Positions 7,157-62,815 of a stretch of 64,000 nt of DNA are shown here, one piece after another. Below the pieces are notes generated by a model. The model was not told where the DNA came from, ran no database searches, and saw nothing but the letters and a program-made list of their open reading frames with translations. The position numbers and the translations under genes are program-made. The DNA is taken from the NCBI GenBank assembly GCA_964016885.1, contig OZ024747.1:20770001-20834000 (forward strand), in the 5' to 3' direction. The DNA comes from Eledone cirrhosa. Taxonomy: Eukaryota. Position 1 is the stretch's first letter. Each line of letters begins with the position of its first letter.

Positions 7157-7200
<44 letters not shown>

Positions 7201-7277
7201 AAACAGGGAGAAAGAGACGATTATTAGGAAGAACATTTTTTTTTTTTCCATTTTTATTTATTTCTCTCCACATTTTT

Positions 7278-15486: not shown

Positions 15487-15610
15487 TAGAACAAAATTAT
15501 TATTAATGTTTTGCTGTTCATAACAATTGGAATTGACATATTACTTTTGAAATTATTAGTTATTTTACTAATGCTTAGATATGTAAAAATGAAGCAATGT
15601 TTCTAATAAT

Positions 15611-15797
15611 TGTTTCTACTTTTGGCACAAGGCCAGCAAATACCCAGTACATTACTGGTACTTTATTTTATCGACCCCGTGAGGATAAAAGGCAAAGTTA
15701 ACCTTGGCGGTATTTGAACTCAGACCGTAAAGGGACGTAACTCCATGCTATGAAGCATGGTGTCCGACTCTCTACAGATTCTGCCAATCCACCGCCC
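15611..15797 (-). mobile_element. SINE family A
   Basis: tgtttctacttttggcacaaggcc...gccaatccaccgccc. Confidence 0.88.
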
Positions 15798-28700: not shown

Positions 28701-31290
28701 TAACATTACCACCACCACCATCACTACCAACACCACCACTAACATTACCACCACCACCATCACTACCAACAACACCACTAACATTACCACCACCACCATC
28801 ACTACCAACACCACCACTAACATTACAACCACCACCATCACTACCAACACCACCACTAACATTACCACCACCACCACTACCAACACCACCACTAACATTA
28901 CCACCACCACCATCACTACCAACACCACCACTAACATTACCACCACCACCACTACCAACACCACCACTAACATTACCACCACCATCACTACCAACACCAC
29001 CACTAACATTACCACCACCACCATCACTACCAACACCACCACTAACATTACCACCACCACCATCACTACCAACACCATCACTAACATTACCACCACCACC
29101 ATCACCACCAACACCACCACTAACATTACCACCACCACCATCACTACCAACACCACCACTAACATTACCACCACCACCATCACTACCAACACCACCACTA
29201 ACATTACCACCACCACCACTACCAACACCACCACTAACATTAGCACCACCACCATCACTACCAACACCACCACTAACATTACCACCACCACCACCACTAC
29301 CAACACCACCACTAACATTACCACCACCACCACCATCACTACCAACACCACCACTAACATTACCACCACCACCATCACTACCAACACCACCACTAACATT
29401 ACCACCACCACCACCACTACCAACACCACCTCTAACATTACCACCACCACCACCACTACCAACACCACCAATAACATTACCACCACCACCATCACTACCA
29501 ACACCACCACTAACATTACCACCACCACCACCACTACCAACACCACCACTACCATTACCACCACCACCACCATCACTACCAACACCACCACTAACATTAC
29601 CACCACCACCATCACTACCAACACCACCGCTAACATTACCACCACCACCATCACTACCAACATTACCACCACCACCATCACTGCCAACACCACCACTAAC
29701 ATTACCACCACCACCATCACTACCAACACCACCACTAACATTACCACCACCACCATCACTACCATCACCACCCCTAACATTACCACCACCATCACTACCA
29801 ACACCACCACTAACATTACCACCACCACCACCACTACCAACACCACCACTAACATTACCACCACCACCATCACTACCAACACTACCACTAATATTACCAC
29901 CACCACCACCACTACCAACACCACCACTAACATTACCACCACCACCATCACTGCCAACACCACTACTAACATTACCACCACCACCATCACTACCAACACT
30001 ACCACTAACATTACCACCGCCACCATCACTACCAACATTACCACCACCACCATCACTACCATCACCACCCCTAACATTACCACCACCATCACTACCAACA
30101 CTACCACTAACATTACCACCACCATCATCACTACCAACACCACCACTAACATTACCACCACCACCACCATCACTACCAACACTACTACTAACATTACCAC
30201 CGCCACCATCACTACCAACACCACCACTAACATTACCACCACCACCATCACTACCAACACCACCACTAACATTACCACCACCACCACCACTACCAACACC
30301 ACCACTAACATTACCACCGCCACCATCACTACCAACACCACCACTAACATTACCACCACCACCACCATCACTACCAACACTACCACTAACATTACCACCA
30401 CCACCATCATCACTACCAACACCACCACTAACATTACCACCACCATCATCACTACCAACACCACCACTAACATTACCACCACCACCACCATCACTACCAA
30501 CACTACCACTAACATTACCACCACCACCATCACTGCCAACACCACCACTAACATTACCACCACCATCATCACTACCAACACCACCACTAACATTACCACC
30601 ACCATCATCACTACCAACACCACCACTAACATTACCACCACCACCACCACCATCACCATCACTACCAACACCACCACTAACATTACCACCACCATCATCA
30701 CTACCAACACCACCACTAACATTACCACCACCACCACCACCATCACCATCACTACCAACACCACCACTAACATTACCACCACCATCATCACTACCAACAC
30801 CACCACTAACATTACCACCACCATCATCACTACCAACACCACCACTAACATTACCACCACCACCACCACCATCACCATCACTACCAACACCACCACTAAC
30901 ATTACCACCACCATTATCACTACCAACACCACCACTAACATTACCACCACCATCATCACTACCAACACCACCACTAACATTACCACCACCACCACCACCA
31001 TCACCATCACTACCAACACCATCACTAACATTACCACCACCATCATCACTACCAACACCACCACTAACATTACCACCACCACCACCACCATCACCATCAC
31101 TACCAACACCACTACTAACATTACCACCACCATCATCACTACCAACACCACCACTAACATTACCACCACCACCACTACCAACACCACCACTAACATTACC
31201 ACCACCACCATCACTACCAACACCACCACTAACATTACCACCACCACCACCACCACCATCATCACTACCAACACCACCAAGAACACAACT
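22740..31290. repeat. 39-bp ACC-derived minisatellite, about 8.5 kb
   Basis: Unit accaacaccaccactaacattaccaccaccaccatcact with triplet indels and kb-scale internal duplications. Confidence 0.95.
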
Positions 31291-31590: not shown

Positions 31591-31967
31591 ATAAGGGTAG
31601 CAGCTAATAAAAGTGACGATAGTTATTTTATTATACGTTCCTCTCTACTTTTTTCTGTATAGGATTCTAGCGTTTTTTGTTGTATTTTTTTGTTTGTTTG
31701 TTTGTTTTTATCACACATATCATATTGGCTCTCTTTCAGCTGTTAATGCGCTTGTTTCACCTTCCTTAAATAAACAGGGTGATAGCATTTAGTTACGGCC
31801 CTTTACGTTCTTTGTTAAAATCCCGCTTTGCATTTCATTATTTCAGAGTCGATAAAATAAAGTACATGTAAAGTGTTTGTGTTGATTTAATCTACTTTCA
31901 CCTCCACCAAAATTAATGGCCCTGTACCTATGTTAGAAAAATAGTCCAATTTTTCGTCCCCAATAGT

Positions 31968-32153
31968 TGTTTCTACTTTTGGCACAAGGCCAGCTATTAT
32001 CTCAGTGCATTACTGGTACTTTATTTTATCTACCCCGTAAGGATGAAAGGCAAAGTTAACTTCGACGGGATTTGAACTCAGACCGTAAAGGAAGGTAACT
32101 ATGCTGGAAAGCATGACGTCGTCCGACCCTCTACTGATATTGTCAATCCACCA
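31968..32153 (-). mobile_element. SINE family A
   Basis: Same consensus as 59828-60011. Confidence 0.85.
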
Positions 32154-36296: not shown

Positions 36297-36493
36297 CACC
36301 TACAGAAATATGCCCAAATGTATATATATATATATATATAACGAAGGAGATGTGGTAAGGAAACAGGTGGACCATAACACACCGAAGTACTCAATACTTA
36401 GAGTAGTAGAGTGGGTAATAGGAACGAGTAGGACAGTCAAGTTTGCAATTTTCAACAGTTGAAAATTGCAAACTTGACTCTCACCACGTATTA

Positions 36494-36992: not shown

Positions 36993-37034
36993 ATCAAAGT
37001 TCTTTCGTTGCACATCTGCAACATCGTCAGTGGT
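36993..37034 (-). ncRNA. Minimal type-I hammerhead in the 3' region of the PLE
   Basis: acca CUGACGA u guugca-gaug-ugcaac GAAA gaac UU ugau. Perfect 6-bp stem II; stem I has one mismatch. Confidence 0.65.
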
Positions 37035-37310: not shown

Positions 37311-37657
37311 TTATACTTCTCTTAGGTCAGTGTTGTTTGTTTGTGTGTTGTTGTTATTCCATTCATTCTTTCTGTTTAGTCTTGGCCTTCTAAGTTCTAT
37401 TTCACTGGCCTCTCTGATTTGCCTATCTGCTGGGTCATTTCTATGTTTAGATATTATTCTAATTTCTATGTTGTCTATGTTACCGTCGTGTTGTTGTGTG
37501 GCATGTTCGTATAGTACTGACCCGTTTTTCGTCCTTTTAGTTCCCCCCAGTGTTGGTCTATCCTTTCACCTATGCTACGAGCTGTTTCGCCTATGTATGT
37601 TGTTGTCATGTTTCTGCAAGTACCCTCTGTACATCTTATGTTATAGACCGGTATACT
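37311..37657 (-). pseudogene. GIY-YIG endonuclease C-terminus of a Penelope-like element (inverted arm)
   Basis: Minus strand reads PVYNIRC...TYIGETARSIGERIDQH, then after a frameshift near 37525 GSVLYEHATQQHDGNIDNIEIRIISKHRNDPADRQIREASEIELRRPRLNRKNEW, with stop at 37311-37313. Confidence 0.85.
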
Positions 37658-38665
37658 AAGAGACAGAGCAGACCAGAGGCCCAACAACTTGGGAGGAAAC
37701 CTGTAGAAGGCTTGGTTAGCCTCAAGCAGCGCACAAGGGATGGTGAGGTAGTATGTCTACCCACGGATAAGTCGGGTAGGATGTCAATAGATAGCATGCC
37801 GAACTACATCAAGGCTATGCAACCCCACATCACCAACACGAGCGAAATTGCACAGCAAACACATGATGGGAGAGAGAAAATCCTCAACGCTCACATGATG
37901 ATGTGGACTGACATCCTAAAGCCAAGCAGACGCACTGCCAACAACTTCCAGGCGTCTAACAATGGCATACCACCCTTGTATGGGCTCCGCAAAGACCACA
38001 AGACAGTCGACGACCCGACAACAGGACCACCAACAAGACCCGTATGCGGAGCTAATATAGCTAGCAACTACAGGATCTCCTACTTCCTCTCAATGGTTAT
38101 ACGCCCCATAATCAAGATGTCTCCAGATGTATGTGACAGTACAGAGGACCTCCTCAGCAGAATCAGTGAGTTCAACAACAACAAAAACAGGAACCTATCC
38201 AACTGCATAATAGGCAGCATGGATGTGGTATCACTGTACCCATCCATTAACATTGATTTTGCTGTGAAAAAATGTGTGGAGATGATCATTGAGAGTGAGG
38301 TGGAGTTCTGCGACGTAGACACAGATGAACTGGGCCTCCTACTTAGACTTACCTACGACACTGACTACCTAGACAGCTATGACCTTAGACGTTTCTGCCC
38401 TAGTAGACCCATAAGAGGTAGACCCTCCACCATAACCTCCATGGCAAAAGACTCCCATGGAAAGGTGGATTGGGTGGACCAAAGCTATACGGACCCCCCC
38501 CCCAAAAAAAAAACAATGATCAGGTAAGAAAAATGGTCGCACATGCAATAGGGGCTAGTATCAAAACTACCCTAAAGGGCCACACATTCAAGTTCAACGA
38601 GAAGATCTACACCCAAAATGAGGGAGCAGCCATTGGCGTCAGCATAGCTGGTGATGTTGCCAACC
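37657..38665 (+). pseudogene. Penelope-like element reverse transcriptase, truncated and frameshifted
   Basis: ORF 37550..38527 contains PTDKSGR, PPLYGLRKDHK, PTRPVCGA, DSTEDLL and GSMDVVSLYPSI. After a frameshift in the C/A run near 38493-38513 it continues FKFNEKIYTQNEGAAIGVSIAGDVANL. These are PLE RT motifs. It is cut at (CT)n before the catalytic DD motif. Confidence 0.9.
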
Positions 38666-39869
38666 TCTCTCTCTCTATATATCTGTTAGAACACGAAAAG
38701 TGTGAAACACAGAATGTTCACTTTTCGTGTTCTAACATATATGCCTAGCTTCTTTAAAAATTTTTCGGGGATAGCCGTGGTGGTGATCGTATGTCATTGG
38801 CTAATTTTCAACCAATCAGAGTACCTCTCTCTATATCTCTTCCACTGTTACTTACGCCTGTTTCTCTCTATCTGTTCCGTCTCTATTTATATCTCTTACT
38901 CTTTCGCTTTGCACTCCTCCCCTTCAATACCATCTCTCCCCCTCTCTATATATTTGTTACTCTATCGCTGCACGCTCCTCTCCTTCAATATATCAATTAC
39001 ACACGCTTTACACTCCTTTATCCCCAGCGCCCCTATATATACACCCCCTCTCCCGCATCTATATTTTAATGTACCGTTGCACCGTGAATACATGTGTCTA
39101 TATATATATATACATATATATTGTATATACACATTCATGTATGTGTATACACACTCATGTATGTATATACACTGGTTTTATGTGTGTATTGTAAATTTGT
39201 ACTGTTAAAACACGAAACTAACATTCGATTGACACTTTGATTACCTGTACAGGCAATAGTTATTAGAATGCTGTTGAAGTGTGTATATATTTTTGGGGGA
39301 CATCCTGTATATACACACATTATATATAATACAATAAACAGATAAATACACACATATATATATGAGCTTATTTAATTATAAATATTGTGAATTTTTAACT
39401 CAGTTCAATTATATATATAAATGGCTTCTACAGGACTAGAACTGTTTCATTCGAAAGAAATCATCATAATATTGAGAGGGGGGACTAGATAAAATATTTC
39501 AAATCAAATGTGTATAAGTTATAAGTTAAAATGTATAAATAGAGACGATAGTGGAGGTATATCTGTTTAGTGGAACAGTAGACGATAGAATTAAATACAG
39601 ACGATAATCTCCCTTTAATGAAACAGCAGACGATAGAATTAAGGCAATTTAAATTTTAAGCATTTGCATTTTTGCCTTTCATCGTTACGGGGTCGATAAA
39701 ATAAAGTACCAGTAATACACTGTCACTAGACGACTTTCAAATTGAATTGTTGGTTCCATTTCTTTAGTATTTTCAATTGTAGTTATCTACTTAAAAAGCG
39801 TTACACGGTTAGAGACATAATTCGTAAGTTATATCTTCCCTATTAAACCATTGCATTATTTCGCCTACA

Positions 39870-45000: not shown

Positions 45001-45005
<5 letters not shown>

Positions 45006-45232
45006 TAACAGATTAAAGTTTAAGCAAAGAATCGCTGCTTTCACCCTTAACGGGAGTTTCAGAAGATCCCGTTAAGGGTGAAAGCAGCGATTCTTTGCTT
45101 AAACTTTAATCTGTTAATTTAATAAATATTTGCTCTACGGTTCTTATATATTTGATATATATTTATCCTTATCGAGCCCTCTTTGGATTTTAGTCTTCAA
45201 ATTTATTATTATTACTATTATTATTATTATTA
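45001..45232 (+). mobile_element. Fold-back element in (TA)n; relatives at 17071-17190, 15062-15135 and 12716-12770
   Basis: Arms 45006-45055 and 45067-45116. Its tail (aataaatatttgctctacgg...gattttagtcttca) is shared with 17092-17170. Confidence 0.75.
45055..45105 (+). ncRNA. Hammerhead-like fold with CAGAAGA core; family copies at 12716-12766 (+) and 15081-15131 (-)
   Basis: aguuu CAGAAGA u ccc-guuaa-ggg u GAAA gca-gcgauucuu-ugc UU aaacu. Confidence 0.55.
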
Positions 45233-45432: not shown

Positions 45433-45744
45433 AAAAACTGATTAAAAGGTAACATTCCCGAGGCAAATTTGGGTGGCTGGGAGTGGACTAAAAACAGTAT
45501 ATATATATATATATCAAATATATATCAAATGAAGCAACGGAGTAAAGGATTCGCGTTAAACACCTTCTTTTCGTGTATTCTCTCGTATATATATTCAACC
45601 TGTTAATTCTTTCGTTACTTTGGTATTGTGTGTTAGATTTTGCCTACCACAATATTCAATTTGTCAAGCTATTTAAACGTATGTTATTACTCTAAGGACC
45701 TACTTTGTCGAGTGCTTTGCTAACTCATTCATATAGTAGGTCGA

Positions 45745-45787
45745 ATTTTCTTGCACACTGCCAAAGATTCGATTTTACGAAGCCTCC

Positions 45788-45847
<60 letters not shown>

Positions 45848-45885
45848 GGAGGCTTCGTAAAATCGAATCTTTGGCAGTGTGCAAG

Positions 45886-45890
<5 letters not shown>
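45745..45890. repeat. 146-bp perfect palindrome centred on (TA)27
   Basis: attttcttgcacactg...cctccaat (TA)n attggagg...cagtgtgcaagaaaat. Confidence 0.9.
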
Positions 45891-45943
<53 letters not shown>

Positions 45944-46056
45944 TTTACACATACACCAATTAAACAAAGTCACAGGTATATATGTGTTTTGGCAATTATT
46001 CACGATGTGGCTCAATGAAGAATTAATAAATGAAATAATCAGAGCAAAATACTATT

Positions 46057-46773
46057 GAGCAAAGCATGTCCAGAGAATTATTTGATAATATATATACATC
46101 ATTTCTACTCCCAATCAGCATAATTAACCACACAAAAAATCAATTAGGCCAGGCTATAAGAATAGAAGGCACCTATGAAGAAACAGTAAATAAATACGCC
46201 ACAGCAGCGTCTTTGCGGTCAACCGCTATAGAATATTTACCCAACATTTCAACAGCACGTAGAAATTAATTAAATATACGGTCAACAATACATAATTAGG
46301 TAAAAATTAAAGTTTGAAATGCTTATATACATACCAGGATTAAATCACTAAATCCATTTTGAATTCGTGTTTGGCGGGGGCCACTTCAGAAATTAATCTG
46401 TCCTAGCGAGTTTGTCCCCTGAAGAGCTCTAAACTCGAGATTTATCCTTACTAAGATATCTCAAAATGTGATCGAAACCCATGGGTCGGGATTTAGTGAT
46501 TTAATTTTGGTATGTATATAATAATTTTTACCTAATTATGTATGGTTGACCGTATATTTAATTAATTTCCACGTGCTGTTGAAATGTTGGGTAAATATTC
46601 TACAGCGGTTGACCGCGAAGACGCTGCTGTGGCGTATTTATTTACTGTTTCTTCATAGGTGCCTTCTATTCTTATAGCCTGGTCTAATTGATTTTTTCTG
46701 TGGTTAATTATGCTGATTGGGAGTAGAAATTATGTATATATATTATAAAATAATTCTCTGGACATGCTTTGCT

Positions 46774-46774
<1 letters not shown>
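46057..46774 (+). mobile_element. Fold-back element with a hammerhead in the spacer
   Basis: Inverted arms 46057-46355 and 46489-46774; right end abuts (TA)n. Confidence 0.75.
46414..46492 (+). ncRNA. Type-I hammerhead in the spacer of a 300-bp inverted repeat
   Basis: guccc CUGAAGA gcuc...gauc GAAA cccauggg UC gggau. Palindromic stem III, GUC cleavage triplet, extended stem II with one mismatch. Confidence 0.75.
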
Positions 46775-46856
<82 letters not shown>

Positions 46857-47097
46857 GTAGAATAATCGAGTATCGAAAAATCGGCGCACAAGTTCACGAT
46901 AAACAAAATTCGAAATGGGCGGCAGAGGGCTCAATAATTCAGATAAATCAGAGCTATAACTATCGTTAAAATACCGTAACACATAGAACAAGTCTATAAT
47001 CAACCATACGACCGAAAAATTGCGATCTGGAAGATTCGGGACACTCAGATAAAAAATCAATAAATCAATAAATCAAATGAATATATATATATATATA

Positions 47098-47290
47098 AGA
47101 AGTGTGGCAAGGTACCAGGTGGACCATAACGCATCAGAGTACTCGATACTTTGGGTAGTAGAGTGGGTAATAGGAGAAGAGTCTGGACCCTGGCGGCTGA
47201 GCTCCGGCCATTTCGACAGCTAATTCTGTTCAGAACCAGCTGTCGAAACGGCCGGAGCTCAGCCGTCGGGGTCCTGACTCTTTTCTTATA
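47098..47290. mobile_element. Fold-back element in (TA)n, related to 36341-36479
   Basis: Arms 47170-47221 and 47238-47289. The left part matches 36352-36423 (gtggaccataac...gtagtagagtgggtaatagga). Confidence 0.7.
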
Positions 47291-47299
47291 TAAATTTAG

Positions 47300-47330
<31 letters not shown>

Positions 47331-47730
47331 TATCCCTATGTAGATGACGGACGAGATAATAGAAGAGTGCTAATTACCGAAGAATAGCTAAAATAGTCAT
47401 TTATTATGGGTATATAGTTAGTCTTATTTCTCTGGAGTTTTACCTGAGCAATCGCAGGATCATCAGACATTGTGGGTATACGTGTTTAATATAAATTTTA
47501 AGACGTGTTTAATATAAATTTTAAGACTTTCTCTGAGAAGATGCGTTGAAGATTATAGGCCAGCGTTGGGTAATGGATTATATAATAACGCAGATGTCAT
47601 AGGCCAGCATTGTAACGAAACACTTGGCAGATTCACCAATTTTAAATAAATGAATTAATGAACATCACCAAATTTTCCTTAATATCTTTCTATTATTATG
47701 TTTATATATATATATATATATATATTTGAA

Positions 47731-47778
<48 letters not shown>

Positions 47779-47780
47779 TT

Positions 47781-47816
<36 letters not shown>

Positions 47817-48038
47817 TATGTTTATGTGTGTATAAATATATATATATACACAGACACATATATGTATATGTGTATGAGGTCATTATGTGAATACTCAGAC
47901 ATATCCACCCCCTCCTCCATGTGAAGCAATACAAATTATATGCATACATATATATAAACATGTGTGTGTGTGTGTGATTATGTGTGCGTATGTGTGTCTG
48001 TGTCTCTTTGTTGACCTGTATCTGCGTGTTAGTATGTG

Positions 48039-48093
<55 letters not shown>

Positions 48094-48224
48094 TGTGTGT
48101 GTGTAACATTAATTTCAATAATTATTCAATGGCCAAGTTTATATACAATTGGAAAGGAAAGATGCGCTTCCCTACGCAGACGTATAGATAGATCGGTAGA
48201 TAGTTAGATCGGTAGATAGATCAT

Positions 48225-48317
<93 letters not shown>

Positions 48318-48318
<1 letters not shown>

Positions 48319-48605
48319 TGTTTCTTTTATTTGCCACCAGGGCATCAAAAGTGGGACAAGTACAGTGGGGGGAGTTTACAAAACAAGGCGTCCTCAATAA
48401 GGAGGAGCCAATAACAATATATAAAAATAAAATAAAATATAACAAAAAATAAAATTTATAACAAAGTCCTCATTAGGACTTGGGGGGTCGCACACACCCC
48501 CGAAAAAAAGTGTGCAACCCTTTTCCTCGGGAGCACAGAGAAGGGGTGCTCCCTTTGTCTTTCATCTGCCTCACCTATAGTCTGATGTAGAGTGAAGGCC
48601 CATTC
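48318..48605 (-). mobile_element. Second Tx1/L1-like 3' end flanked by (GATA)n on both sides
   Basis: NGPSLYIRL* and the same terminus gtggcaaataaaagaaac. Confidence 0.6.
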
Positions 48606-48649
<44 letters not shown>

Positions 48650-48655
<6 letters not shown>

Positions 48656-49082
48656 GAAATATATTTCTTTATTTGCCACAAGGGCGCACAAGAAAAGGGG
48701 ACAGTACAAGGACACATGCCGAAGATTTTACATACAGTCGTGTAAAAATATTATTAAAACAAACAAATTTAACAATCGAAATCCCCAATAGGAGGAGGGG
48801 GGTCGTTACAAATGGGTTGTTTAATACCCCGTCGATAGAACAACCCTCAACTTCAAGAACGTGTTGTGCAAGTGCTCCTTTCTTCCTTTTGCTCTCTTCT
48901 TCAACCTATAGGTTTATATACAGAGAGGGTCCAATAACTCGGGCCATTTTTGCTACATTCACCCACCTTTCAGTAAATTTACTGGGGGTTCAGTGCCTCT
49001 CTCTCCACTCTGATTCTCCTTCTAAAGTGATACTTAAAGAAGGGAATCAATTGTTGTCCGGAGAGAAAGGCATCTGTCCTCA
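48650..49082 (-). mobile_element. Tx1/L1-like LINE 3' end terminating in (ATCT)n
   Basis: LIPFFKYHFRRRIRVEREALNPSKFTERWVNVAKMARVIGPSLYINL* (stop at 48906); the 3' UTR ends gtggcaaataaagaaat. Confidence 0.65.
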
Positions 49083-49112
49083 GTCTTCTCACACAAACAC
49101 ACACACACACAT

Positions 49113-49180
<68 letters not shown>

Positions 49181-49185
<5 letters not shown>

Positions 49186-49826
49186 AATATATCAACTAAC
49201 ATAGGCGCACAGATGCACGTCCATGCCAGCAAATACACAGGTTATGTCATAGTACCTAGGTGGTTCAATGCAGGAGGGTGCAGAACAATAATATAAAAGA
49301 CGTAAAATAAGAAAATATTTTTTAAAAAATTTTAAAAAATTTTTTTACTTACTTACTTAAATTTTCACTCCAACTAATTAGTTTCTGCAATGGGATAAAG
49401 ACAGTTACGTAATCCAACTGTCGAGAATTCATTGCGTCATCAGGGAGTCTATTCTCAGCTGAGTCTCCAGGCAATGCGCGGACACTGGCGGCTCATATAA
49501 AAATAATAATAATTCGGTAGAAAGAACAGCTGGCGAGGACTGGATTCTATGTACTGAAATTCTCACTGCTTCTAGTCAAATGGCCGATTCTAAAGAATCA
49601 ATCACGTGACACAGAGGCTAGTTAGAAGGAATGGGATGGTAAGATGACTGACGCCTACTAACACCCCCAAAAAATTTAGAAGTGGTTTTGGCAGGTTTGC
49701 TCGACAAATCAGTGATTTGGAGATAAATATAGATAATTTAATATATCAACTAACATAGGCGCACAGATGCACGTCCATGCCAGCAAATACACAGGTTATG
49801 TCATAGTACCTAGGTGGTTCAATGCA
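49181..49826 (-). mobile_element. Non-coding hammerhead-bearing element with terminal direct repeats (retrozyme-like or non-autonomous PLE)
   Basis: A 92-bp direct repeat at 49181-49272 and 49735-49826 (offset 554), one hammerhead inside, 3' end abutting (TA)n. Confidence 0.7.
49367..49448 (-). ncRNA. Type-I hammerhead with extended stem II
   Basis: acucc CUGAUGA c gcaaug..gacaguu..aacuguc..cauugc a GAAA cuaauuag UU ggagu. Perfect stem I, palindromic stem III. Confidence 0.8.
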
Positions 49827-49827
49827 A

Positions 49828-50019
49828 ATCGTATAATTCGCAGTGGTTCAGCATATAGTCAAGCTATAAACGGTATCCAGTCGGTTCTTAATTAATATAT
49901 CATGCTGTCCAAATCATTCAGGCACTTCCGGAATTTGGACAGCATGATATATTAATTAAGAACCGACTGGATACCGTTTATAGCTTGACTATATGCTGAA
50001 CCACTGCGAATTATACGAT
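49828..50019. repeat. 87-bp inverted repeat with 18-bp spacer
   Basis: 49828-49914 versus 49933-50019. Confidence 0.9.
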
Positions 50020-50566
50020 AGACGCGTGTTCTCTATATATATATTGCGTCTCATGGATTATGTGAGTGGTGGTGTGAGCAAGGACAGTGGTACGACCTTG
50101 CCTACGATACAATAAGGTTTATAGTATGTTGAAGGTTTTTGATATTTTGGTGTTTCCCCGCATCCGAGACTGTATATCATACAGATGTATGAGAATTAAT
50201 GACTTAATAATTCAGCCTATATTATAAGATCGATTGCCTGCTTCAACTGCCTGACCCTGCAAATATCATTCTGACGCACTCTAATCATGTATAGATAAGA
50301 CAAGCGTGCATGCTACACGGGAGATTGCTTCATGCACTGTCTACTCTAAGCTTTCCTCTTGCTTTATCTTCATAGACTGCCAACGCTTCATGTTTATCTT
50401 TATTTTCACTCTTGCTTTTATTTTATTTTATTTTTATCATGTAACACTTTATATGTAAATTGCCATGCTGTTTCATTTGATGAATGTCACCCCACTGTTG
50501 ATCAATATGCGCATATGTTTTATGTGTCTCTTGGGTTGAAAAGGAGGTCAAGTATGTTATAAATAG

Positions 50567-50615
50567 TTGCTCCGAAGAATCCAAACCTCGGTTTGGAGGA
50601 AACAATTGTAAGCAA
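50567..50615 (+). ncRNA. Type-I hammerhead-like fold (U4C core variant)
   Basis: uugcu CCGAAGA a uccaaac-cucg-guuugga g GAAA caauug UA agcaa. All three stems pair. Confidence 0.7.
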
Positions 50616-51001
50616 ATAAATGACTTAAACTGAACTTTGATTACTGTAATCTCTATATAACTGCTCTGTATAATAACTGATGTTATTACATTGAGCTATT
50701 TAACTTACTGGTAATAGGATAGTAATTAAAGACTATCTCTCACTATTTAGGGTTTGTGTATATATAATATATTACCATCAAAGGTTTTATTGCATACATA
50801 GCCATAAATAGTACCCTTAATACTATATATATATGTATATATACAGCGAGAGAGAGGGGTGAGAGAGAGAGAGGGGGGGAGAAAGAGAAGGGAGAGAGAG
50901 AGATGTGTGTGTATGTAGGAGAAAGAATGTTAAACGTATGTAGACATTTACCGATATAACATCCATATATAGATGCATATATATATTGCTTTATATTACA
51001 T

Positions 51002-51064
<63 letters not shown>

Positions 51065-51393
51065 CACAAAAACATATAATTCGCACATTTATATACGTGT
51101 GTATGTGTGCGTTTGTGCGCGTTTGATTTTGTAGGTATGTATGTGTGGTGTGACTTTATGTGGGTGTATGAGGGTGCGTATGTGTGTGTGTAAGTGTGTG
51201 TAAGAGTGTGTAGGTGTGTGTGTCTGCGTGCGTGCATGTGTGATTGTGTGTGTTTGTGTGTTTGTATGTGTGTATGTGTGTGTATGTGTGTGTATGTGTG
51301 TGTGTGTGTGTAGGTGTGTGTTAGCAGGTCATAACTTTAAGTAAAATTGTCTGAATGGAAAACTAATTAGATTTTATCTCTTCTGCAATATCT

Positions 51394-53330
<1,937 letters not shown>

Positions 53331-53498
53331 ATGTGTGAATTCATATATATCTATGTATATGAATACGTGGTTGTGAGAGTGTGTATATGTCGTTTCATGT
53401 ACAAATTAGAGAGATACAGCAGAATGCTTGATGTGTAAATTCTATCCGCCGAGCCGAAAAGCACTGAACTTACAGATTGTTATACATGTATATACATT

Positions 53499-53536
<38 letters not shown>

Positions 53537-53548
53537 GGTGTGTGTGTG

Positions 53549-53604
<56 letters not shown>

Positions 53605-54186
53605 AGTGTGTGTGTGTGTATGTGTGTGTATGTGTGGGGGGGTCTCTCTGTGTGTGTGTCTCTGTGTGTGTATGTGTGTGTGTGTGTGTGTGTATGTGTG
53701 TGTGTATGTGTGTGTATGTGTGTGTGTGTGTGTGTGTCTGTGTCTGTGTGTATGTGTGTGTGTGTGTATGTGTGTGTATGTGTGTGCGTGTGTGTGCGTG
53801 TGTGTGTATGTGTGTGTGTGTGTGTGTGTGTGTACTTATCCCGGGTTCAATCGGGGATAACCACAGTAAGTAAGGTACTCAATATGTATTCATTTTCTTA
53901 TACTATTTTAAAGGGTCCGTCGAGCTGCCTATTATTGAGTCGGGTAAGATCGCTACAGATCGAACCTTGAGCTGATCAGTGGCGAAACGCGCGTCACCTA
54001 CCAATAAATGTAATGAAGGAGTAACCAACCAATCGCCCTTGTTATCCTTTCAATATATTACACTCTATATAACTCTACACATCAACACAGAAGTGAACCT
54101 AAACATCGAGTGCTCACCCGGGTGAACCTGCAGTAACTCCAAGTTACACTCCCTATATATATATAGAGATATATAGATACATATAC

Positions 54187-54231
<45 letters not shown>

Positions 54232-54423
54232 TTTGTGTGTGTTCGTGGGTTCGTTTGTAGGGACAAACTTTGACTTATATACGTGTAAAACATCTTCTGG
54301 GAAGGAATTATTGACTGTATATACTCAGTACAAAACAATAAATATCAATTTCGGTGAATAATTCTGAAAACAGTCTTCATCTTACATACAATTTCTTCAC
54401 ATCTCTCAGCCTACGCACGCACA

Positions 54424-54505
<82 letters not shown>

Positions 54506-54558
54506 AATATGTATATATACATATATATATGTATATATATATACATATCTATATATAA

Positions 54559-54589
<31 letters not shown>

Positions 54590-54608
54590 AACATATATAT
54601 ATATATAA

Positions 54609-54662
<54 letters not shown>

Positions 54663-54922
54663 TACAAAATATTGTTCACTCGGTACGATTCTCTTTTCAA
54701 GCAATATGAATTAATATTTTAGGTTTTAAAACTTCTGAAAATGTACGAAAGGAACACATATATTATCAGAAAATGAAACTAAATGTAAAGTTAATTTCGT
54801 AATAAATGGCAATAGAAATTCCTTCGGAGCGATATGTGATAAAAACTGTTCTGCGGCTATGAATGAAATCTTTCTATTAGAAGCACCTAATGGTGAGATT
54901 ACAAATAGATGAGAGAGTTATG

Positions 54923-54954
<32 letters not shown>

Positions 54955-55026
54955 AAGAAAAAAAGATGAAATCGAAAATGCAACTGGAGTCTTATTTTTA
55001 AAAAAAGTATATATATTTATTTGGTT

Positions 55027-55084
<58 letters not shown>

Positions 55085-55263
55085 GTGTGTGTGTGTGTGT
55101 GTGTGCGTGTGAGTCTGTGTGTGTGAGTGTATAATAATGATAACGTAAGGACGAATGGTAACTCCTTCATTACGTTTATTGGTTGGTGACTCGTGTTTCG
55201 CTACTGATCAGCTCAAGGTTCAATCTGTGTGGATCTAGCCCGACTCTGGAATGAAAAGCTCGT

Positions 55264-55370
<107 letters not shown>

Positions 55371-55433
55371 TGTGTACATGTGTGTGTGAGTATGAATGTG
55401 CGTGTCTGTGTGTATCTGTGCGTCTGTGTGTCT

Positions 55434-55805
55434 GTCATACCAGTTTTCAAAAAGGAGTACAGGATCTTTGGGGGGAACTACTATCCAATCTCACTCAGCT
55501 CTGATATTGTCAAGGTATTACGGGGGGGGGGGGTGATGAGATAACGAATAACTCCTTTCCTTGAAAGGAACAATCTGCTGAACTCCAGCCACCATGGGTT
55601 CCGCGATGGATGGTCTGGTCTGTCTGACGCCCTTTTTGCATTACTTTCATGACAACCTAAAAGCTTTGCGAGATGGCACCAATACGGATGTTATTTACCT
55701 TGATTTCAGCAAGGCCTTTGATAGGGTCGCCTACATCATCTTATTGAAGAAATGATCCAACACTCGAGTCTGTAGAAAGCCTCCGCTGTGGATTAAATGT
55801 TTCTC
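55434..55805 (+). pseudogene. CR1/L2-type LINE RT fragment
   Basis: VIPVFKK...NYYPISLSS, NLLNSSHHGFRDG, DVIYLDFSKAFDRV; contains frameshifts and a stop. Confidence 0.82.
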
Positions 55806-56455
55806 AGCATGCTGTAGTCGAAGTAATACAAAAATGTTCGGTAAAAGTCTGTTATTGGCTCGAAAACTGACATTCTATGTTATAATAAAAAGAAATGCCA
55901 AAGGTAAGAAACAAATACCGTTGACTTATGCTGTGACTGCTGCTACTACCGCATTAAAGGACAAATGAAAGCAAACTTAACGATTTAAAACTATTAAATT
56001 CAATTATAAAGGATATAATTTAGTTTTTTGGCCAAGGTTGATTTTATGGTTAGGGTTAGTGTTGCAAGTAATGAAAAAACAATTTTTGTTCATAATCATA
56101 CAATTTTAAAAAATACTAGCATGTAATAAAAATTCAACGATTTTTTTAATTTTATGTCAAATACTTTTTCGGTGCTATTTTACGTTCGCACTTGCAAAAA
56201 ATATAAGTTTAATGTTTAAAGGAAAGGTTAATTTTAAAGGATGTTAATATTCTTCAGAGGACAGTTTAATGAAAACGGGAGAATACTTTGTTTTTAAATA
56301 TTATTTTATATCTACTACTTTTTCTTCTATACTCATTTATTCCCGAGAGAATCGTAACAGCAGAGTTACGCCTTTCAGAGTGTTCTATCAGAAGTACGCG
56401 TTTCCAACGGCAAGATCCCCAAGCTATACCTACCAAGCTTATAGATGTTATTTAT

Positions 56456-57214
56456 ATGGTTGATTTCTTCGGACTAGGGAGAGGAAAGACTGTATTTATT
56501 TTATCTAATAATTCTTCAAACTTACAATTTTATATAGTTCTGATTAACAATTATTTGCTAAATTAATTCTTTCATTGAGCCACACCGTGAAAGGTATCTG
56601 TGACTATGTCTAAATATATACATATATCCCTATGAATTTAATATATACTCCCGTCAGGTAGAGTAACACTTTAGGAAGTATCTGGCTCGCTTTCTAGCAA
56701 CCAGCCTACTCGCCGCCTGGCAACCAATCACAGTCTTCTGCCTTGACCACTGGCCACGTGATGATTCTTAGCCACTTTTTAATTCAATTCTGGCGGGGAT
56801 CACGGTAGAAATGTTAGTCCAAACTCGGGGTGTCTCTTGATGAGCTCCAAGCCTCGTGGATAAATCCAGCATCGGGTATATCCGCAAAAAAGGAGCGAAA
56901 CTGCCGGCAGTCGGGACAAGAGGAATTTTAGTAAAGTTTATATGCATTTTTTCTTCCAACTTATATTTTAAACCTAACTCCGTTTAGTTGATTATTTGTC
57001 TAGTCAATTTCTACGGTCTAAAAGGAATGACTAGATAAATTTTATCTGGCTGTCCCTTGCGGAAAATAGTCTGTATCATTTGTCTATTATTTCTTCTTAG
57101 TTTCATTTTAAACTTATAGCCTCGTTTAAATGATTATTTATGGTTGATTTCTACGGACTAGGGAGAGGAAAGACTGTATATATTTTATCTAATAATTCTT
57201 CAAACTTACAATTT

Positions 57215-57220
<6 letters not shown>
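56456..57220 (+). mobile_element. Non-coding hammerhead-bearing element with terminal direct repeats (retrozyme-like or non-autonomous PLE)
   Basis: About 81-bp direct repeat at 56456-56536 and 57140-57220 (offset 684), hammerhead at 56831-56918, runs into a long (TA)n. Confidence 0.7.
56831..56918 (+). ncRNA. Type-I hammerhead (C3U in this copy)
   Basis: ugucuc UUGAUGA gcucc..guggaua..uauccgc..ggagc GAAA cugccggcag UC gggaca. 6-bp stem I, canonical G10.1-C11.1, palindromic stem III, GUC site. Confidence 0.78.
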
Positions 57221-57245
<25 letters not shown>

Positions 57246-57271
57246 AAATATATATACATATATATATATAC

Positions 57272-57401
<130 letters not shown>

Positions 57402-57782
57402 ACTGTTTCAACTTCCTGATGATTTCTCCCGAATGAAACAGTTCTAGTCCTGAAGAAGCCTTTTCTATATTAAATATATGTATATATATATATATATATA
57501 TACGTTACCTAAGTAAACTATACGTATGCCTTGTTCAGGCTTATGATACCTTAAACAATACTTGATTTCAGTATATTTCCGGGAAACCAATTTCAAACAA
57601 TTCTAGTAAAATTCTATTTGTTCTGGAATATTCATTCATTCAGAATTGCTGCGCAATGCGAGATCCTTTCGTTCGAAAGTTACATGATCTGTAACCTCCT
57701 GCTTCAAAAGACGTCTGCATTTGCAAAATTACACTTTACTAAGCGCAAATATATATATAAAGACATGCGTTAGTAGGCGAAA

Positions 57783-58913
57783 TCTATATATATAAAACTG
57801 AGGTTGTCTGTCTGTCTACTAAAACCTTCGGCACACATCTCCTCTTAAACGATACGTTCAAATTTCGGTGAAATTGCTACACTTATAGATGAAGGTCCGG
57901 CGGAACCATCGGTCAAATAAATTTTCAAATCGACCCACGCCAAGTGTAAAAATCGAATTTGTAATGTATTGATTTTTCAGTTCAAATGTATAAATAGAGA
58001 TGAGAGACGAGTTATTTCCCTTTTATGGCGTCATTTTATCTATTTATGTTACGTATAAACGACGCGGTGGACCGAGAAGAACAATTTCATGCAAAGAGAA
58101 GACGAAGTTTATGGTGTAAATGGAGTCGTTAGCCTAATATTCTATTTAAAATAACCGAATGATTTCCAGCCCCGGAGTTTAAGAATGATGTAAATAAAAT
58201 TGTATACGAAAATGACAGGTTATTAAAATAGTTGTTTCTACTTTTGGCACAAGGCCAGCAATTAAACAGTACATTACTGGTACTTTATTTTATCGACCCC
58301 GTAAGGATGAAAGGCAAAGTTAACCTCGACGGGATTTTAACTTTGCCTTAACATAGTAAAAATAAATAGTGAAGATTTAGGCCAGTACATACGTATGCAC
58401 CGACGAACATACACATACTTATACATACGCACACACAAATACATACACACACACACACACGTGCGCGTGCGCGCGTGTGTGTAAACCTTATGCATTTCTA
58501 CAGTATTTTCACCAAACTTAAGACATAGGTTACTCATGTACTCCGGATGGTCATGGACACTTTCATTTTTCCAGATATTGATTATAGGGCCTCCCGGCGG
58601 ATAACGCCCTTTAGCCACTTCCTTGGAGTCGACTGAAGCACTGCAGTGCAATGCAACAAAACGTCATAACTTCTGGAGTTCGCAACCGATTTTCACGAAA
58701 CTTGACACATGGGATACGTTTGTTCTACAGATGAATGTGAACTCTCAGAATTGGCACATATTGAGTAGGGGACCCCTGAGGGCAGGAACCCCCTTTTGGA
58801 AAAAGTCGATGAGTTTATAAAAGTATAGTTTTCGAAGCAGCACTGAAGTATTGACATAAATGGTATACATAACTGCTATTTAATACCCGAGCAACGCCGG
58901 GTACCTCTGCTAG
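57783..58913 (+). mobile_element. Non-autonomous Helitron-like element
   Basis: A|TC 5' end (tctatatatataaaac...gtctgtctgtc), 3' hairpin tacccg-agcaacgc-cgggta (58884-58903) then CTAG|T, no TSD; carries a SINE fragment. Confidence 0.8.
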
Positions 58914-59827
58914 TGTATGATAAAGTTGGATAACCACGACTGCAACAATGAGTTTTTAATTATACCCATTCTAAATCTGTAGGCATATAAACCTGCCAGA
59001 AAATATGAATTTCCCTGTAAATTGATAAAGACACCCGTTTTCTTTCAAACCATCCCATCAAAATGTTAGATTATACTGAAAATTTAAATATTTTCGTTTT
59101 GTCTTGCTTCATCCGAAAGTTAAGAGAGATTCAGCTAATACGTCAACTAGAAAAATGTGAATGCGGGTGGATGGACGGATCGGAGTTTGATCAGAATACT
59201 TACAACAATGCTATCACTACAATAAGCACTGGCGTTGCAGTTAAACTCGTCGTTTATTGTGTGTGTTCAAGAATACGTTTGTGTATTCTGCCAAAATCAC
59301 CGGCCAGTGCATTATATGAATTAGTCACAAGCCAACTGAAAATCTATACCTGGATTTTATGTTGGGGATTTCGATACTGCGAATCTAAAGGTTGTAGCAT
59401 GATATCTTCTTAAAGCGCATATATTTAACTTAATTTTTGAGGCGGTGTTCAATTATATAGTTACATATACAATAACAGTAATTAGACGGGATTAAGGAAT
59501 TGGTCTCGTGTTTACTCCCCCTCTAAACAGTAAAAACACACAGTATGGTACAGCGCACAGGTTATCACCTTGTTTCATACTAGTTAGCAATACGTTACAA
59601 ATAGATGCAACTTTATTCCATTGTAATGAGAAGTTTCTTAGCTATGTGTCTCTTGTGTTCAATATAATTACATCCAATTTGTTCTCATGTAATTACTTTT
59701 AGTCTGAAGTATTCATAAATATTAACCAATTAAGTTGTCTCGGATTTCTTCACATTTGCACAAGCTTAAAGATGTATGTCCTCTTATTTTATTCATTTAC
59801 CGATTCTATTCGTTTCGCTAAGATAAT

Positions 59828-60011
59828 TGTTTCTACCATTGGCACAAGGCCAGCAATTATCCCAGTATATTACTGGTACTTTATTTTATCGACCCCCGTA
59901 AGGATGAAAGGCAAAGTTAACCTCGGCGGGATTTGAACTCAGACCATAAAGGGCCGTAACTCTGCAAAGCATGGCGTCCGACCCTCTACCGATACTGCCA
60001 ATCCACCGCCC
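59828..60011 (-). mobile_element. Full-length SINE family A with TSD
   Basis: Reverse complement of the 39870 copy; TSD taagataat at 59819-59827 and 60012-60020. Confidence 0.9.
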
Positions 60012-60841
60012 TAAGATAATACCGCGACATTGTAGTCTATAGTGTAGATGATTGCATCGACTCCAATATTAACTGGCATCTGTTTTCTCGACTTTATAGG
60101 TTTGATAGTTTTGAAAAATATATTCAATCGGAGTGTGGGATTTAAACTCAAGACGTAAAGGGGCAGTATCAAATGCTACAAACTATTTTTCTAGCTCTCT
60201 AACGTCGATGAAATAAATTACCAATCAAGTAATGGGATGAATATAATTGATTTTCCCCTCCCCAAATTTTTTGGGATTATGAAACCATTATTTAAATATC
60301 CATACTGACAGCGATTTTGTAACTCACTACACTGAATTTAAATTACGGGAGCTCCTTTGTGTCTAGTTCAACCAAAACTAGTTTGAAACTATAATCTTTC
60401 TGTTGCCAGGCGTCTATGATATTACTAAGATTTTCCTGTATTGAATTTATTCCTGTGTTGAACTTGTATTCAGCTCAGCTATGTTCATGTATTCGGATTA
60501 AAACAATTACGATATAAGGGATTTTGTTCAAGCCATTAAAAATCATTTATACATTGTTATATTCACCTTTACGTTATTTCATTGTAACAATGGTTTCTAA
60601 AGTTGGCGCAAGGCTAACAAATTTAAGATGATGGGGAAAATCGATAATACTGGCCCCACTATTTTAGTATATTTTATTTTATCAAACTCGACAAGATGAA
60701 TAGCAGAGTTGACTGCGGCCAGGTTTGAACTTAAAGAGCCGGAACAAATACTGCTAAGCATTTCTTCGACGCTCTAAAGATACTGTCAATGTGTCACACG
60801 ATATAGTGTTAGGTATAATCATCATTGTCCACACACACACA

Positions 60842-62097: not shown

Positions 62098-62815
62098 GGG
62101 CGGTGGATTGACAGTATCGGTAGAGGGGCGGACGCCATGCTTTGACGCATAGAGTTACGGCCCTTGCCATTCTGAGTTCAAATCCCGCTGAGGTTAACTT
62201 TGCCTTTCATCCTTACGGGATCGATAAAATAAAGTACCAGTAATGCACTGGGTAATTGCTGGCCTTATGCCAAAAGTAGAAACAATTATTATCATCATTA
62301 CGGCGGTGGATTGGCAGTATCGGTAGAGCATCGAACGCCATGCTTTTCAGCATAGAGTTATGTCCCTTTATGATCTGAGTTCAAATCTCGCCGAGGTTAA
62401 CTTTGCTTTTCATCCTTACGGGGTCTATAAAATATAGTACCAGTCACGCACTGGGGTCGATTTAATCGATTTACCCCTCCCTCAAAATTGTTGGTCTTGT
62501 GCCTATATAAGAAGCCATTATTATCATCATTAGGACGGAGGATTGGCAGTATCGGTAGAGCGTATGACATCCTGCACCACAGCATCGAGTTACGGCCCTT
62601 TGGGTTCTGATTTCAAATCTTGCCGAGGTTAGCTTTGCCTTTCATTCTTACGGGGTCAATAAAGTAACAGTAATGCACTGGCCTCGATTTAATCAACTTT
62701 CCCCCCTCCCAAAATTGATGACCTTGTATCTATCGTAGAAATGATTATTAAGGACGGTGGATTGGCAGTTTCAGTAGAGTATTGGACACTATGCTTCTAG
62801 GTTCAAATCTTGCCG
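62098..62815 (+). mobile_element. Head-to-tail array of four SINE family A copies
   Basis: Heads ggcggtggattggcag-like near 62098, 62301, 62532 and 62752, separated by (att/atc)n tails. Confidence 0.88.

What the first reader, a model, noticed from the sequence alone, without database searches (positions are those of the whole stretch)
49181..49826. 554-bp retrozyme-like monomer on the minus strand
Identical 92-bp direct repeats flank a non-coding unit with an intact CUGAUGA/GAAA hammerhead and a long bipartite stem II. The 3' end is fused to (TA)n. It has the same architecture as 56456-57220 but unrelated sequence, and the identical repeats suggest a young insertion.
Basis: partly seen in the sequence, partly recalled or inferred. 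Interest (0 to 1): 0.78.

Follow-up and report, generated by a model that had tools for sequence, protein, structure and literature searches.

The report
Hammerhead-bearing Penelope-type repeat in octopus DNA
This is one copy of a common, protein-free jumping repeat in what appears to be an octopus genome: it carries a self-cutting RNA motif and looks like a parasite of Penelope-like retrotransposons, a kind already known from many animals, and this copy has only one ribozyme, so it cannot cut out an RNA circle by itself.

Summary
49735-49826 and 49181-49272 are identical, 554 bp apart. The unit is non-coding and holds one type I hammerhead (cut between 49372 and 49371). The 3' end runs into (TA)n. 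No such motif arose in 100 shuffled windows. Public runs show a large, diverged family, and the head-to-tail junction is bridged in two other samples, so it is a family feature. A Penelope-type RT/GIY-YIG remnant, 73% identical to an Octopus vulgaris protein, lies 11 kb away. Best reading: a 1.17-unit insertion of a non-autonomous Penelope-like element (non-LTR retrozyme monomer).

- The repeats hold no ribozyme, so this copy cannot release a 554-nt circle.
- The core boxes are intact, but helix II opens with a C-A mismatch.
- Helix III is a palindrome that folds best as a dimer.
- 'Young' means only under about 3% divergence.

New detail: all three long-helix-II hammerheads in the window can pair their 5' leader with the helix II internal loop (6-7 bp pseudoknot, different sequences). 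This is suggestive and untested. Cleavage and expression were not testable.

The parts
49181..49826 (-). Whole insertion: 1.17 units (R-U-R), non-coding
   Evidence: summed contig depth in run X1 falls from about 1e5 to 6e3 across 49822-49858
49735..49826 (-). 5' copy of the 92-bp terminal redundancy (R1); no ribozyme in it
49181..49272 (-). 3' copy of the redundancy (R2), ending at the (TA)n; inferred start point of reverse transcription
   Evidence: role inferred from PMC11167929
49273..49826 (-). 554-bp repeat unit
   Evidence: period 554
49367..49448 (-). Type I hammerhead: stem I 5 bp, CUGAUGA, C-A opposition at 10.1/11.1, bipartite helix II (6 bp, 7x7 loop, 8 bp), GAAA, GUU cleavage between 49372 and 49371
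49372..49383 (-). 12-nt palindrome forming helix III; stable only as an intermolecular duplex
   Evidence: monomer 0, duplex -10.8 kcal/mol; cofold gives a double hammerhead
49451..49457 (-). Leader 5' of stem I that can pair with the helix II internal loop (candidate pseudoknot, 7 bp with one U-G)
   Evidence: not tested by covariation within the family
49422..49428 (-). Helix II internal-loop strand, pseudoknot partner
49492..49505 (-). Upstream segment predicted to sequester the leader in the 646-nt transcript (pair probability about 0.86; stem I then 0.11)
   Evidence: prediction only
49090..49180 (.). (TA)n then (CA)n microsatellite at the 3' end; inferred target site
49828..50019 (.). 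Perfect 87-bp inverted repeat with an 18-nt loop, 1 bp from the element's 5' end; not homologous to the unit
49915..50046 (+). Probable 5'-truncated remnant of a second repeat family ending at a short (TA) run; 49828-49914 is its inverted copy
   Evidence: other copies go on with different letters before 49914, and both arms share the minority letter at mirror sites 49872/49975; reading inferred
56456..57220 (+). Second unit of the same layout (684-bp period, hammerhead core at 56837, cut after 56912, (TA)n at the 3' end)
45945..46782 (+). Third hammerhead element (core at 46419, cut after 46487) with a 307-bp inverted 5' copy plus tail and (TA)n at both ends; related to the 56456 unit
37368..38712 (.). 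Broken Penelope-type element: RT on + (37649-38712), inverted GIY-YIG 3' piece on - (37648-37368); candidate class of the helper, not shown to be the helper

Best explanation
A copy of a non-autonomous Penelope-like element (PLE), i.e. a monomer-plus of an animal non-LTR retrozyme family, in an octopod genome. SHOWN: R-U-R layout, one type I hammerhead, no ORF, (TA)n at the 3' end, a large diverged family, the head-to-tail junction in other samples, and PLE RT/endonuclease remnants nearby. INFERRED mechanism: (1) A source locus with two or more units is transcribed. (2) Two hammerheads pair through the palindromic helix III and may cut the RNA to unit length, after which it may be ligated into a circle. 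(3) A PLE protein supplied in trans nicks (TA)n DNA and starts reverse transcription at the end of R. (4) It copies 554 nt and 92 nt more, around a circle or along a multimer, which makes the two identical repeats from one template. (5) The 5' end joined head-to-head to a fold-back remnant of another repeat. This copy is an end product: with one ribozyme it can at most be cut once, in a dimer with another RNA, and cannot release a circle.
For: Repeat, period and ribozyme. 17 of 22 listed runs from 13 studies hold words of the element, 4 hold half or more, and 8 have small shares that I did not lay. In X1, 1359 contigs were laid on 49193-50300 (409/399/405/146 at 99+/95-99/90-95/<90% identity), with summed depth 3e4-4e5 over the element versus 1e3-6e3 over 49822-50006 (the tool warns this is no copy number). 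The head-to-tail junction 49734/49735 is bridged with more than 31 letters on each side by one contig in X4 and one in X6 (records 11 and 17). Both repeats carry T at 49220/49774, where 639 of 747 and 270 of 338 X20 reads have C, as expected if both were copied from one template. Palindromic helix III, short helix I and long helix II match PLE hammerheads (PMC4209133). Partial tandems, inverted 5' copies and microsatellite bias are PLE marks (PMC8557442), and 45945-46782 shows the full inverted form. RT remnant 73% identical over 267 aa to an Octopus vulgaris protein (P0073). [quoted passage not shown] O. vulgaris holds 31 recently active PLE families and 6.83% PLE DNA (PMC13282606).
Against: No genome was available, so no autonomous PLE with a homologous pLTR was identified and no tandem array of this unit was seen. 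The one 'goes back' joint (4 reads, 2 starts) is ambiguous because I laid the region from 49193, which clips the first repeat. No listed contig spans this locus. The adjacent inversion is of another family, not of the unit itself. C-A at 10.1/11.1 departs from the conserved G-C (PMC4209133). Stem I has probability 0.11 in the full transcript. Only 1 of 9 Xenopus dimer elements cleaved in vitro (bioRxiv 2026), and in the anole PLE the hammerhead was not needed for insertion in vitro (PMC11167929), so steps 2 and 3 may not involve cleavage or a circle.
Confidence: 0.8

Rival explanations
1. A 5'-truncated remnant (solo pLTR plus tail) of an autonomous PLE, with the 92-bp redundancy made locally, rather than a member of a self-standing non-autonomous family.
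For: Most PLE insertions are 5'-truncated and keep one terminal repeat. The ribozyme is of the PLE type. Autonomous-type remnants lie in the window.
Against: The R-to-U head-to-tail junction is bridged in contigs of two other samples. Depth in X1 does not fall toward the 5' part of U (1.1-1.5e5 over 49563-49710). tblastn with 8 PLE proteins finds no coding remnant in or near the unit.
Confidence: 0.12
2. The 92-bp repeat (and the 87-bp hairpin beside it) is an assembly duplication.
For: Perfect identity of both repeats. Complex PLE ends are known to trouble assemblies. No listed contig spans the locus.
Against: The junction that such an artefact would create exists in independent samples X4 and X6. 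A second unit in the window has the same layout with non-identical repeats (95.5%).
Confidence: 0.04
3. This locus is itself an active retrozyme that makes a ~554-nt circular RNA (the strong form of the first reader's idea).
For: The unit folds into a highly paired structure (z -3.62; 66% paired as a circle). Mussel, coral and axolotl retrozymes make circles (PMC7229834).
Against: There is one cleavage site only. A transcript cut once has one ribozyme-made end, so circles of this family would have to come from multi-unit loci elsewhere.
Confidence: 0.04
4. Separate question, compatible with the best explanation: the hammerhead of this copy is catalytically dead or nearly so, and the element moves without it.
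For: C-A at 10.1/11.1. U17 can pair with A14 in the palindrome. Leader and stem I are sequestered in the predicted full-length fold. 8 of 9 tested vertebrate dimers did not cleave.
Against: All core boxes and stems are intact. A mismatch at the base of helix II (U-U) is compatible with cleavage in natural hammerheads (PMC3088659; axolotl Amex2). The dimer fold is the predicted minimum for two trimmed molecules. A 7-bp pseudoknot could compensate.
Confidence: 0.35

Closest known systems
Animal non-LTR retrozymes (Cervera and de la Pena 2020, PMC7229834, passages and one section read; Li, Clavereau and Pollet 2026, bioRxiv 10.64898/2026.07.22.740005, parts 1-3 of 5 read)
   Same: Non-coding, AT-rich unit with a type I hammerhead; dispersed monomers are described as offspring of multimers; derived from PLE pLTRs; present in another mollusc (Mytilus).
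   Different: The 554-bp unit is above the 150-450 bp of the 2020 paper, though within the 51-972 bp of the 2026 preprint. One ribozyme here, so it is not an 'active' retrozyme by the two-motif criterion. Helix II is long and bipartite rather than 4 bp. Circles are not shown.
pLTR hammerheads of Penelope-like elements (Cervera and de la Pena 2014, PMC4209133, parts 1-2 of 4 read; Craig et al. 2021, PMC8557442, passages; Frangieh et al. 2024, PMC11167929, parts 1-2 of 4)
   Same: Type I, 5-bp helix I, enlarged helix II, palindromic helix III suited to dimers; partial tandem; AT-rich/microsatellite target; inverted 5' segments in neighbours.
   Different: No ORF. C-A opposition instead of a lone bulge before G10.1-C11.1. 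Helix II spans 51 nt with an internal loop. Candidate leader-loop pseudoknot, whereas PLE hammerheads are described as lacking tertiary contacts (PMC6155905, passages).
Pseudoknotted hammerheads (Perreault et al. 2011, PMC3088659, passages)
   Same: A Watson-Crick pseudoknot between stems I and II, predicted in about 40% of hammerheads of all three types.
   Different: Here the partner is an internal loop of a long helix II, in a dimer-type, retroelement-borne motif; the passages I read do not describe that combination.
Plant LTR retrozymes (seen only as described)
   Same: Non-coding unit with direct repeats at both ends and a hammerhead.
   Different: Those carry a type III hammerhead in each LTR, with PBS/PPT and 4-bp TSDs; here the repeats hold no ribozyme and the motif is type I.

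Membership tests
Animal non-LTR retrozyme | Type I hammerhead in the unit | tested here: met
Animal non-LTR retrozyme | No protein coding; GC under 50% | tested here: met
   longest Met-ORF 27 codons, GC 37%
Animal non-LTR retrozyme | Multi-copy family | tested here: met
Animal non-LTR retrozyme | Two or more consecutive ribozyme-bearing units at this locus (active element) | tested here: not met
   1.17 units, one ribozyme; this makes it a monomer derivative, not an active copy
Animal non-LTR retrozyme | Tandem multimers somewhere in the family | tested here: inconclusive
   head-to-tail junction bridged in X4 and X6; no dimer spanned; one ambiguous joint
Animal non-LTR retrozyme | Self-cleavage in vitro | not testable with these tools
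   needs a bench assay
Animal non-LTR retrozyme | Linear and circular unit-length RNA in cells | not testable with these tools
   no RNA run could be laid
Penelope-like element (non-autonomous derivative) | Hammerhead with short helix I, enlarged helix II, palindromic helix III | tested here: met
   against PMC4209133
Penelope-like element (non-autonomous derivative) | G10.1-C11.1 at the base of helix II, often with one extra nucleotide before it | tested here: not met
   C49436 opposes A49386 before the first G-C pair; whether the family majority differs was not visible
Penelope-like element (non-autonomous derivative) | Partial-tandem (more-than-unit) insertion | tested here: met
Penelope-like element (non-autonomous derivative) | Insertion at microsatellite / AT-rich target | tested here: met
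   this unit and the two other long-helix-II units end in (TA)n; one locus of this family only, and the window is rich in (TA)n
Penelope-like element (non-autonomous derivative) | Inverted 5'-truncated copy of itself (frequent, not obligatory) | tested here: not met
   the adjacent inversion is of unrelated sequence; met for 45945-46782
Penelope-like element (non-autonomous derivative) | Sequence homology to the pLTR of an autonomous PLE | not testable with these tools
   no genome held; blastn of the window against itself shows no match to the DNA around the RT remnant
Autonomous PLE | RT plus GIY-YIG ORF | tested here: not met
Plant LTR retrozyme | Type III hammerhead in each terminal repeat | tested here: not met

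The most novel reading that the evidence does not exclude
Octopod non-autonomous PLE families of unrelated sequence share an undescribed hammerhead architecture: a long bipartite helix II whose internal loop is clamped to the 5' leader by a 6-7 bp Watson-Crick pseudoknot, combined with a palindromic helix III. That would make a fast but dimer-gated ribozyme, which an upstream hairpin can switch off. In addition, the head-to-head joint with a second family, both outer ends on (TA) runs, could record one insertion in which the two target strands were primed on two different RNAs.
Probability: 0.35. Interest if true: 0.55.

Novelty: new member of a known kind. Interest (0 to 1): 0.3.

Why it matters
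As a kind it is known: hammerhead-bearing, PLE-dependent repeats occur across animals. I found no description for cephalopods. Searches were 'retrozyme'+'octopus' and 'Octopus'+'Penelope'+'hammerhead'; the 2026 O. vulgaris repeat paper has no 'ribozyme' in its text or supplement; the giant squid genome paper only counts 235 Rfam hammerheads. Rfam misses these motifs, so they may be undercounted. Three such elements in 64 kb make octopods a good place to ask what PLE hammerheads are for, which is still open. A 1.17-unit copy with private letters shared by both repeats is the product expected from reverse transcription around a circle or along a multimer. If the pseudoknot is real, it adds a structural variant to the dimer-type hammerheads.

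Tried and rejected
Whole-genome search: none is held for this window, so copy number, arrays and the empty site were not measured.

Rfam: 0 hits at gathering score in the window. On 45500-58000 at E up to 10, the 150 rows shown of 204 were mostly microRNA models on microsatellites and hairpins, none a hammerhead. On 49300-49520 there were 4 chance hits and no hammerhead family.

Sequencing runs: no RNA holder listed, which is no evidence on expression. I laid 4 of the 22 listed runs; only 40 of 139 variant rows were shown, none in the ribozyme core or pseudoknot strands, so covariation within the family could not be counted. The pile-ups of read ends at 49426, 49514, 49558, 49738 and 50212 in the RAD run were rejected as biology. 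Four of them (49426, 49514, 49558, 50212) fall at EcoRI or one-mismatch EcoRI sites. 49738 is not in that list and I take it for a library cut too (inferred). None is at the cleavage site, and the run is DNA.

Two exact-pattern scans of metagenome contigs gave 0 matches.

Pfam gave nothing on the RT remnant or on 8 short relatives.

MAFFT could not align this hammerhead with the other two, so the structural comparison was made by position relative to the core.

Lunse et al. on dimer-cleaving PLE hammerheads is not held; I saw only its reference line, and it may already show this architecture. A look for GUU cleavage rates in PMC1636495 found no passage. Earlier scan notes near this place or like this sequence: none.

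Rejected readings: LTR retrozyme (repeats lack the ribozyme); the 87-bp hairpin as an inverted pLTR of this unit (no similarity). bioRxiv supplements were closed, so family tables of the 2026 preprint were not seen.

Full report
OBSERVATION. The sequence is as described. At period 554 an exact match of 94 nt links 49179-49272 with 49733-49826; the last 2 nt are already (TA)n. Between them lies one type I hammerhead on the minus strand: stem I 5 bp, CUGAUGA at 49443-49437, helix II of 6 bp + 7x7 internal loop + 8 bp + 7-nt loop, GAAA at 49385-49382, a palindromic helix III and GUU, with the cut between 49372 and 49371. A strict descriptor found 2 such sites in the window and none in 100 shuffled windows. 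0 of 5000 shuffles of the element gave a palindromic hit, and 1 of 5000 gave any hit. The descriptor was modelled on this site. The unit is non-coding (longest Met-ORF 27 codons) and 37% GC. Rfam does not recognise the motif.

(a) The repeats hold no ribozyme, so the locus has one cleavage site. (b) The pair at the base of helix II is C-A, not G-C; G10.1-C11.1 is highly conserved in PLE hammerheads (PMC4209133), though U-U mismatches there can still cleave (PMC3088659; PMC7229834). (c) Helix III has no monomer structure (0 kcal/mol) but a -10.8 kcal/mol self-duplex. Two trimmed molecules fold into a strand-swapped double hammerhead at -55.2 versus -45.6 kcal/mol for two monomers. In that fold U17 also pairs with A14, which would compete with the active state (inference). 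(d) In the whole 646-nt transcript stem I has probability 0.11, because 49492-49505 pairs with the leader.

HOST AND NEIGHBOURHOOD. An RT remnant at 37649-38712 is 73% identical over 267 aa to an Octopus vulgaris protein, and the 11 best hits of the first search are all from O. vulgaris. The window is therefore most likely octopod; the species is not known. [quoted passage not shown]. The endonuclease piece lies inverted at 37648-37368, with a degraded hammerhead-like core at 37030. Two more long-helix-II hammerhead elements lie in the window. 56456-57220 has the same R-U-R-(TA)n layout with 95.5% alike repeats. 45945-46782 has a 307-bp inverted 5' copy and (TA)n at both ends, the textbook PLE form. 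These two are related to each other (73% over 123 nt) but not detectably to our unit.

FAMILY. 17 of 22 listed runs, from 13 studies, hold words of the element; 4 hold half or more, and 8 have small shares that I did not lay. I laid 4 runs on 49193-50300. X1 gave 1359 contigs across all identity bands, with summed depth 3e4-4e5 over the element and 1e3-6e3 just beyond its 5' end; this is not a copy number, but the step at 49826 marks the family boundary. One contig in X4 (49671-49824) and one in X6 (49435-49826) bridge the head-to-tail junction at 49734/49735, so running past one unit is a family trait, not an invention of this assembly. No listed contig spans this locus. This copy carries minority letters (in X20, 1465 of 1810 reads differ at 49461 and 1181 of 1521 at 49278), and both repeats carry the same minority T at 49220/49774. 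That fits copying from one template, and would also fit an assembly duplication or gene conversion. X4 holds near-identical pieces (1 difference in 303, 1 in 154) at depth about 3, without the flank.

AGE. 92 identical sites bound pairwise divergence at 3.2% (95%). At the rate implied in PMC13282606 (JC 0.09 = 25 My) that is up to about 4 My (my arithmetic). 'Young' is plausible, not shown.

THE 5' JUNCTION. One base from the element starts a perfect 87-bp inverted repeat (49828-50019). It is not part of the unit. Other copies of that sequence go on differently before 49914, and both arms share a minority letter at mirror sites 49872/49975. I read it as a 5'-truncated remnant of a second family, ending at 50035 on a short (TA) run, with its own inverted copy. 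The compound has (TA) at both outer ends. The anole PLE protein cuts and extends both strands (PMC11167929), so one event with two templates is possible; nested insertion at different times explains it as well.

CANDIDATE PSEUDOKNOT. With fixed windows relative to the core, the leader 5' of stem I pairs with the 5' side of the helix II internal loop in all three ribozymes: 7 bp (49457-49451 with 49428-49422), 6 bp and 7 bp, with different letters. Of all 9-mers of the own element, 6 of 626, 8 of 751 and 7 of 719 pair as strongly; leader shuffles reach it in 42, 144 and 22 of 2000. Against it: the windows were chosen after seeing the data; two of the three elements are related; one non-cognate combination (leader 2 with loop 3, -9.1) beats both cognate ones; and family-level covariation could not be counted. 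Pseudoknots between stems I and II are common in hammerheads generally (about 40%). A search for hammerhead + pseudoknot + Penelope + palindromic listed 3 papers; in the one I searched (PMC6765202) the passages shown tie no pseudoknot to PLE hammerheads, and the other two I saw only as listings. The key paper by Lunse et al. was not available.

MECHANISM. Most likely (0.8) a non-autonomous PLE: RNA from a multi-unit source, possibly trimmed by double hammerheads and circularised, is reverse-transcribed by a PLE protein at a nick in (TA)n, starting at the end of R and running 646 nt. Cervera and de la Pena proposed this more-than-unit copying from circles, and Li et al. class such monomers as offspring of active retrozymes derived from PLE pLTRs. 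The layout, family and neighbours are shown; transcription, cleavage, circle and helper identity are inferred. Results against a central role for cleavage: 8 of 9 Xenopus dimers did not cleave, and hammerhead mutants of the anole PLE still inserted in vitro.

PAPERS SEEN. bioRxiv 10.64898/2026.07.22.740005: parts 1-3 of 5, supplements closed. PMC4209133 and PMC11167929: parts 1-2 of 4. PMC7229834: passages and section 14. PMC8557442, PMC3088659, PMC6765202, PMC6155905, PMC6962438: passages. PMC13282606: passages and its supplement searched. PMC1636495: searched, no passage. Hammerhead numbering (10.1, 11.1, A14, U17) is from my own knowledge.

VERDICT. Real, multi-copy, and of a known kind: a new octopod member of the PLE-dependent hammerhead repeats. 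This copy is an end product that cannot make the predicted circle. Interest 0.3; the ribozyme architecture shared by unrelated families is the part worth a follow-up.

Noticed in passing
window:45945-46782 (+): Hammerhead element with a 307-bp inverted 5' copy, a further ~100-nt tail and (TA)n at both ends; related to 56456-57220. Not in the finding.
   Followed up: partly
window:37368-38712 and 37030: Broken Penelope-type RT (+) with an inverted GIY-YIG 3' piece (-) and a degraded minimal hammerhead core downstream on the minus strand.
   Followed up: partly
window:21297-31279: About 8.5 kb of a 39-bp tandem (22740-31253, 220 copies, extreme C and A skew) plus a 153-bp/TCA tandem; could encode a Thr-rich mucin-like stretch (not checked).
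   Followed up: no
window:41438-42400: 216-bp near-perfect inverted repeat (99.5%) ending at (TA)n, with no hammerhead core found; PLE-like or MITE-like.
   Followed up: partly
window:45745-45890, 6890-7233, 45003-45119, 47170-47289, 36432-36482: Many short inverted duplications, several at (TA)n; 36351-36423 and 47103-47175 are related (86%) and each is followed by a hairpin of different sequence.
   Followed up: no
window:36499-36527 (+) and 57416 (+): Two small hammerhead-like cores with short helix II; the first passed the loose scan, the second has weak stems.
   Followed up: no
window:39869-40061, 15605-15798, 59823-60012, 62098-62290, 31962-32152 and shorter copies: A ~190-bp interspersed repeat in many copies at 85-92% identity, probably a SINE (not checked).
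   Followed up: no
run X4 on window:49365-49824: A sample labelled as another organism holds two contigs about 99.5% identical to this copy at depth ~3, without the flank or the majority letters shown; two samples of the same study hold next to none of its words. Trace DNA, a young subfamily or transfer cannot be told apart.
   Followed up: no
window:63157-63677: 103-bp tandem, 5.1 copies at 99% identity.
   Followed up: no
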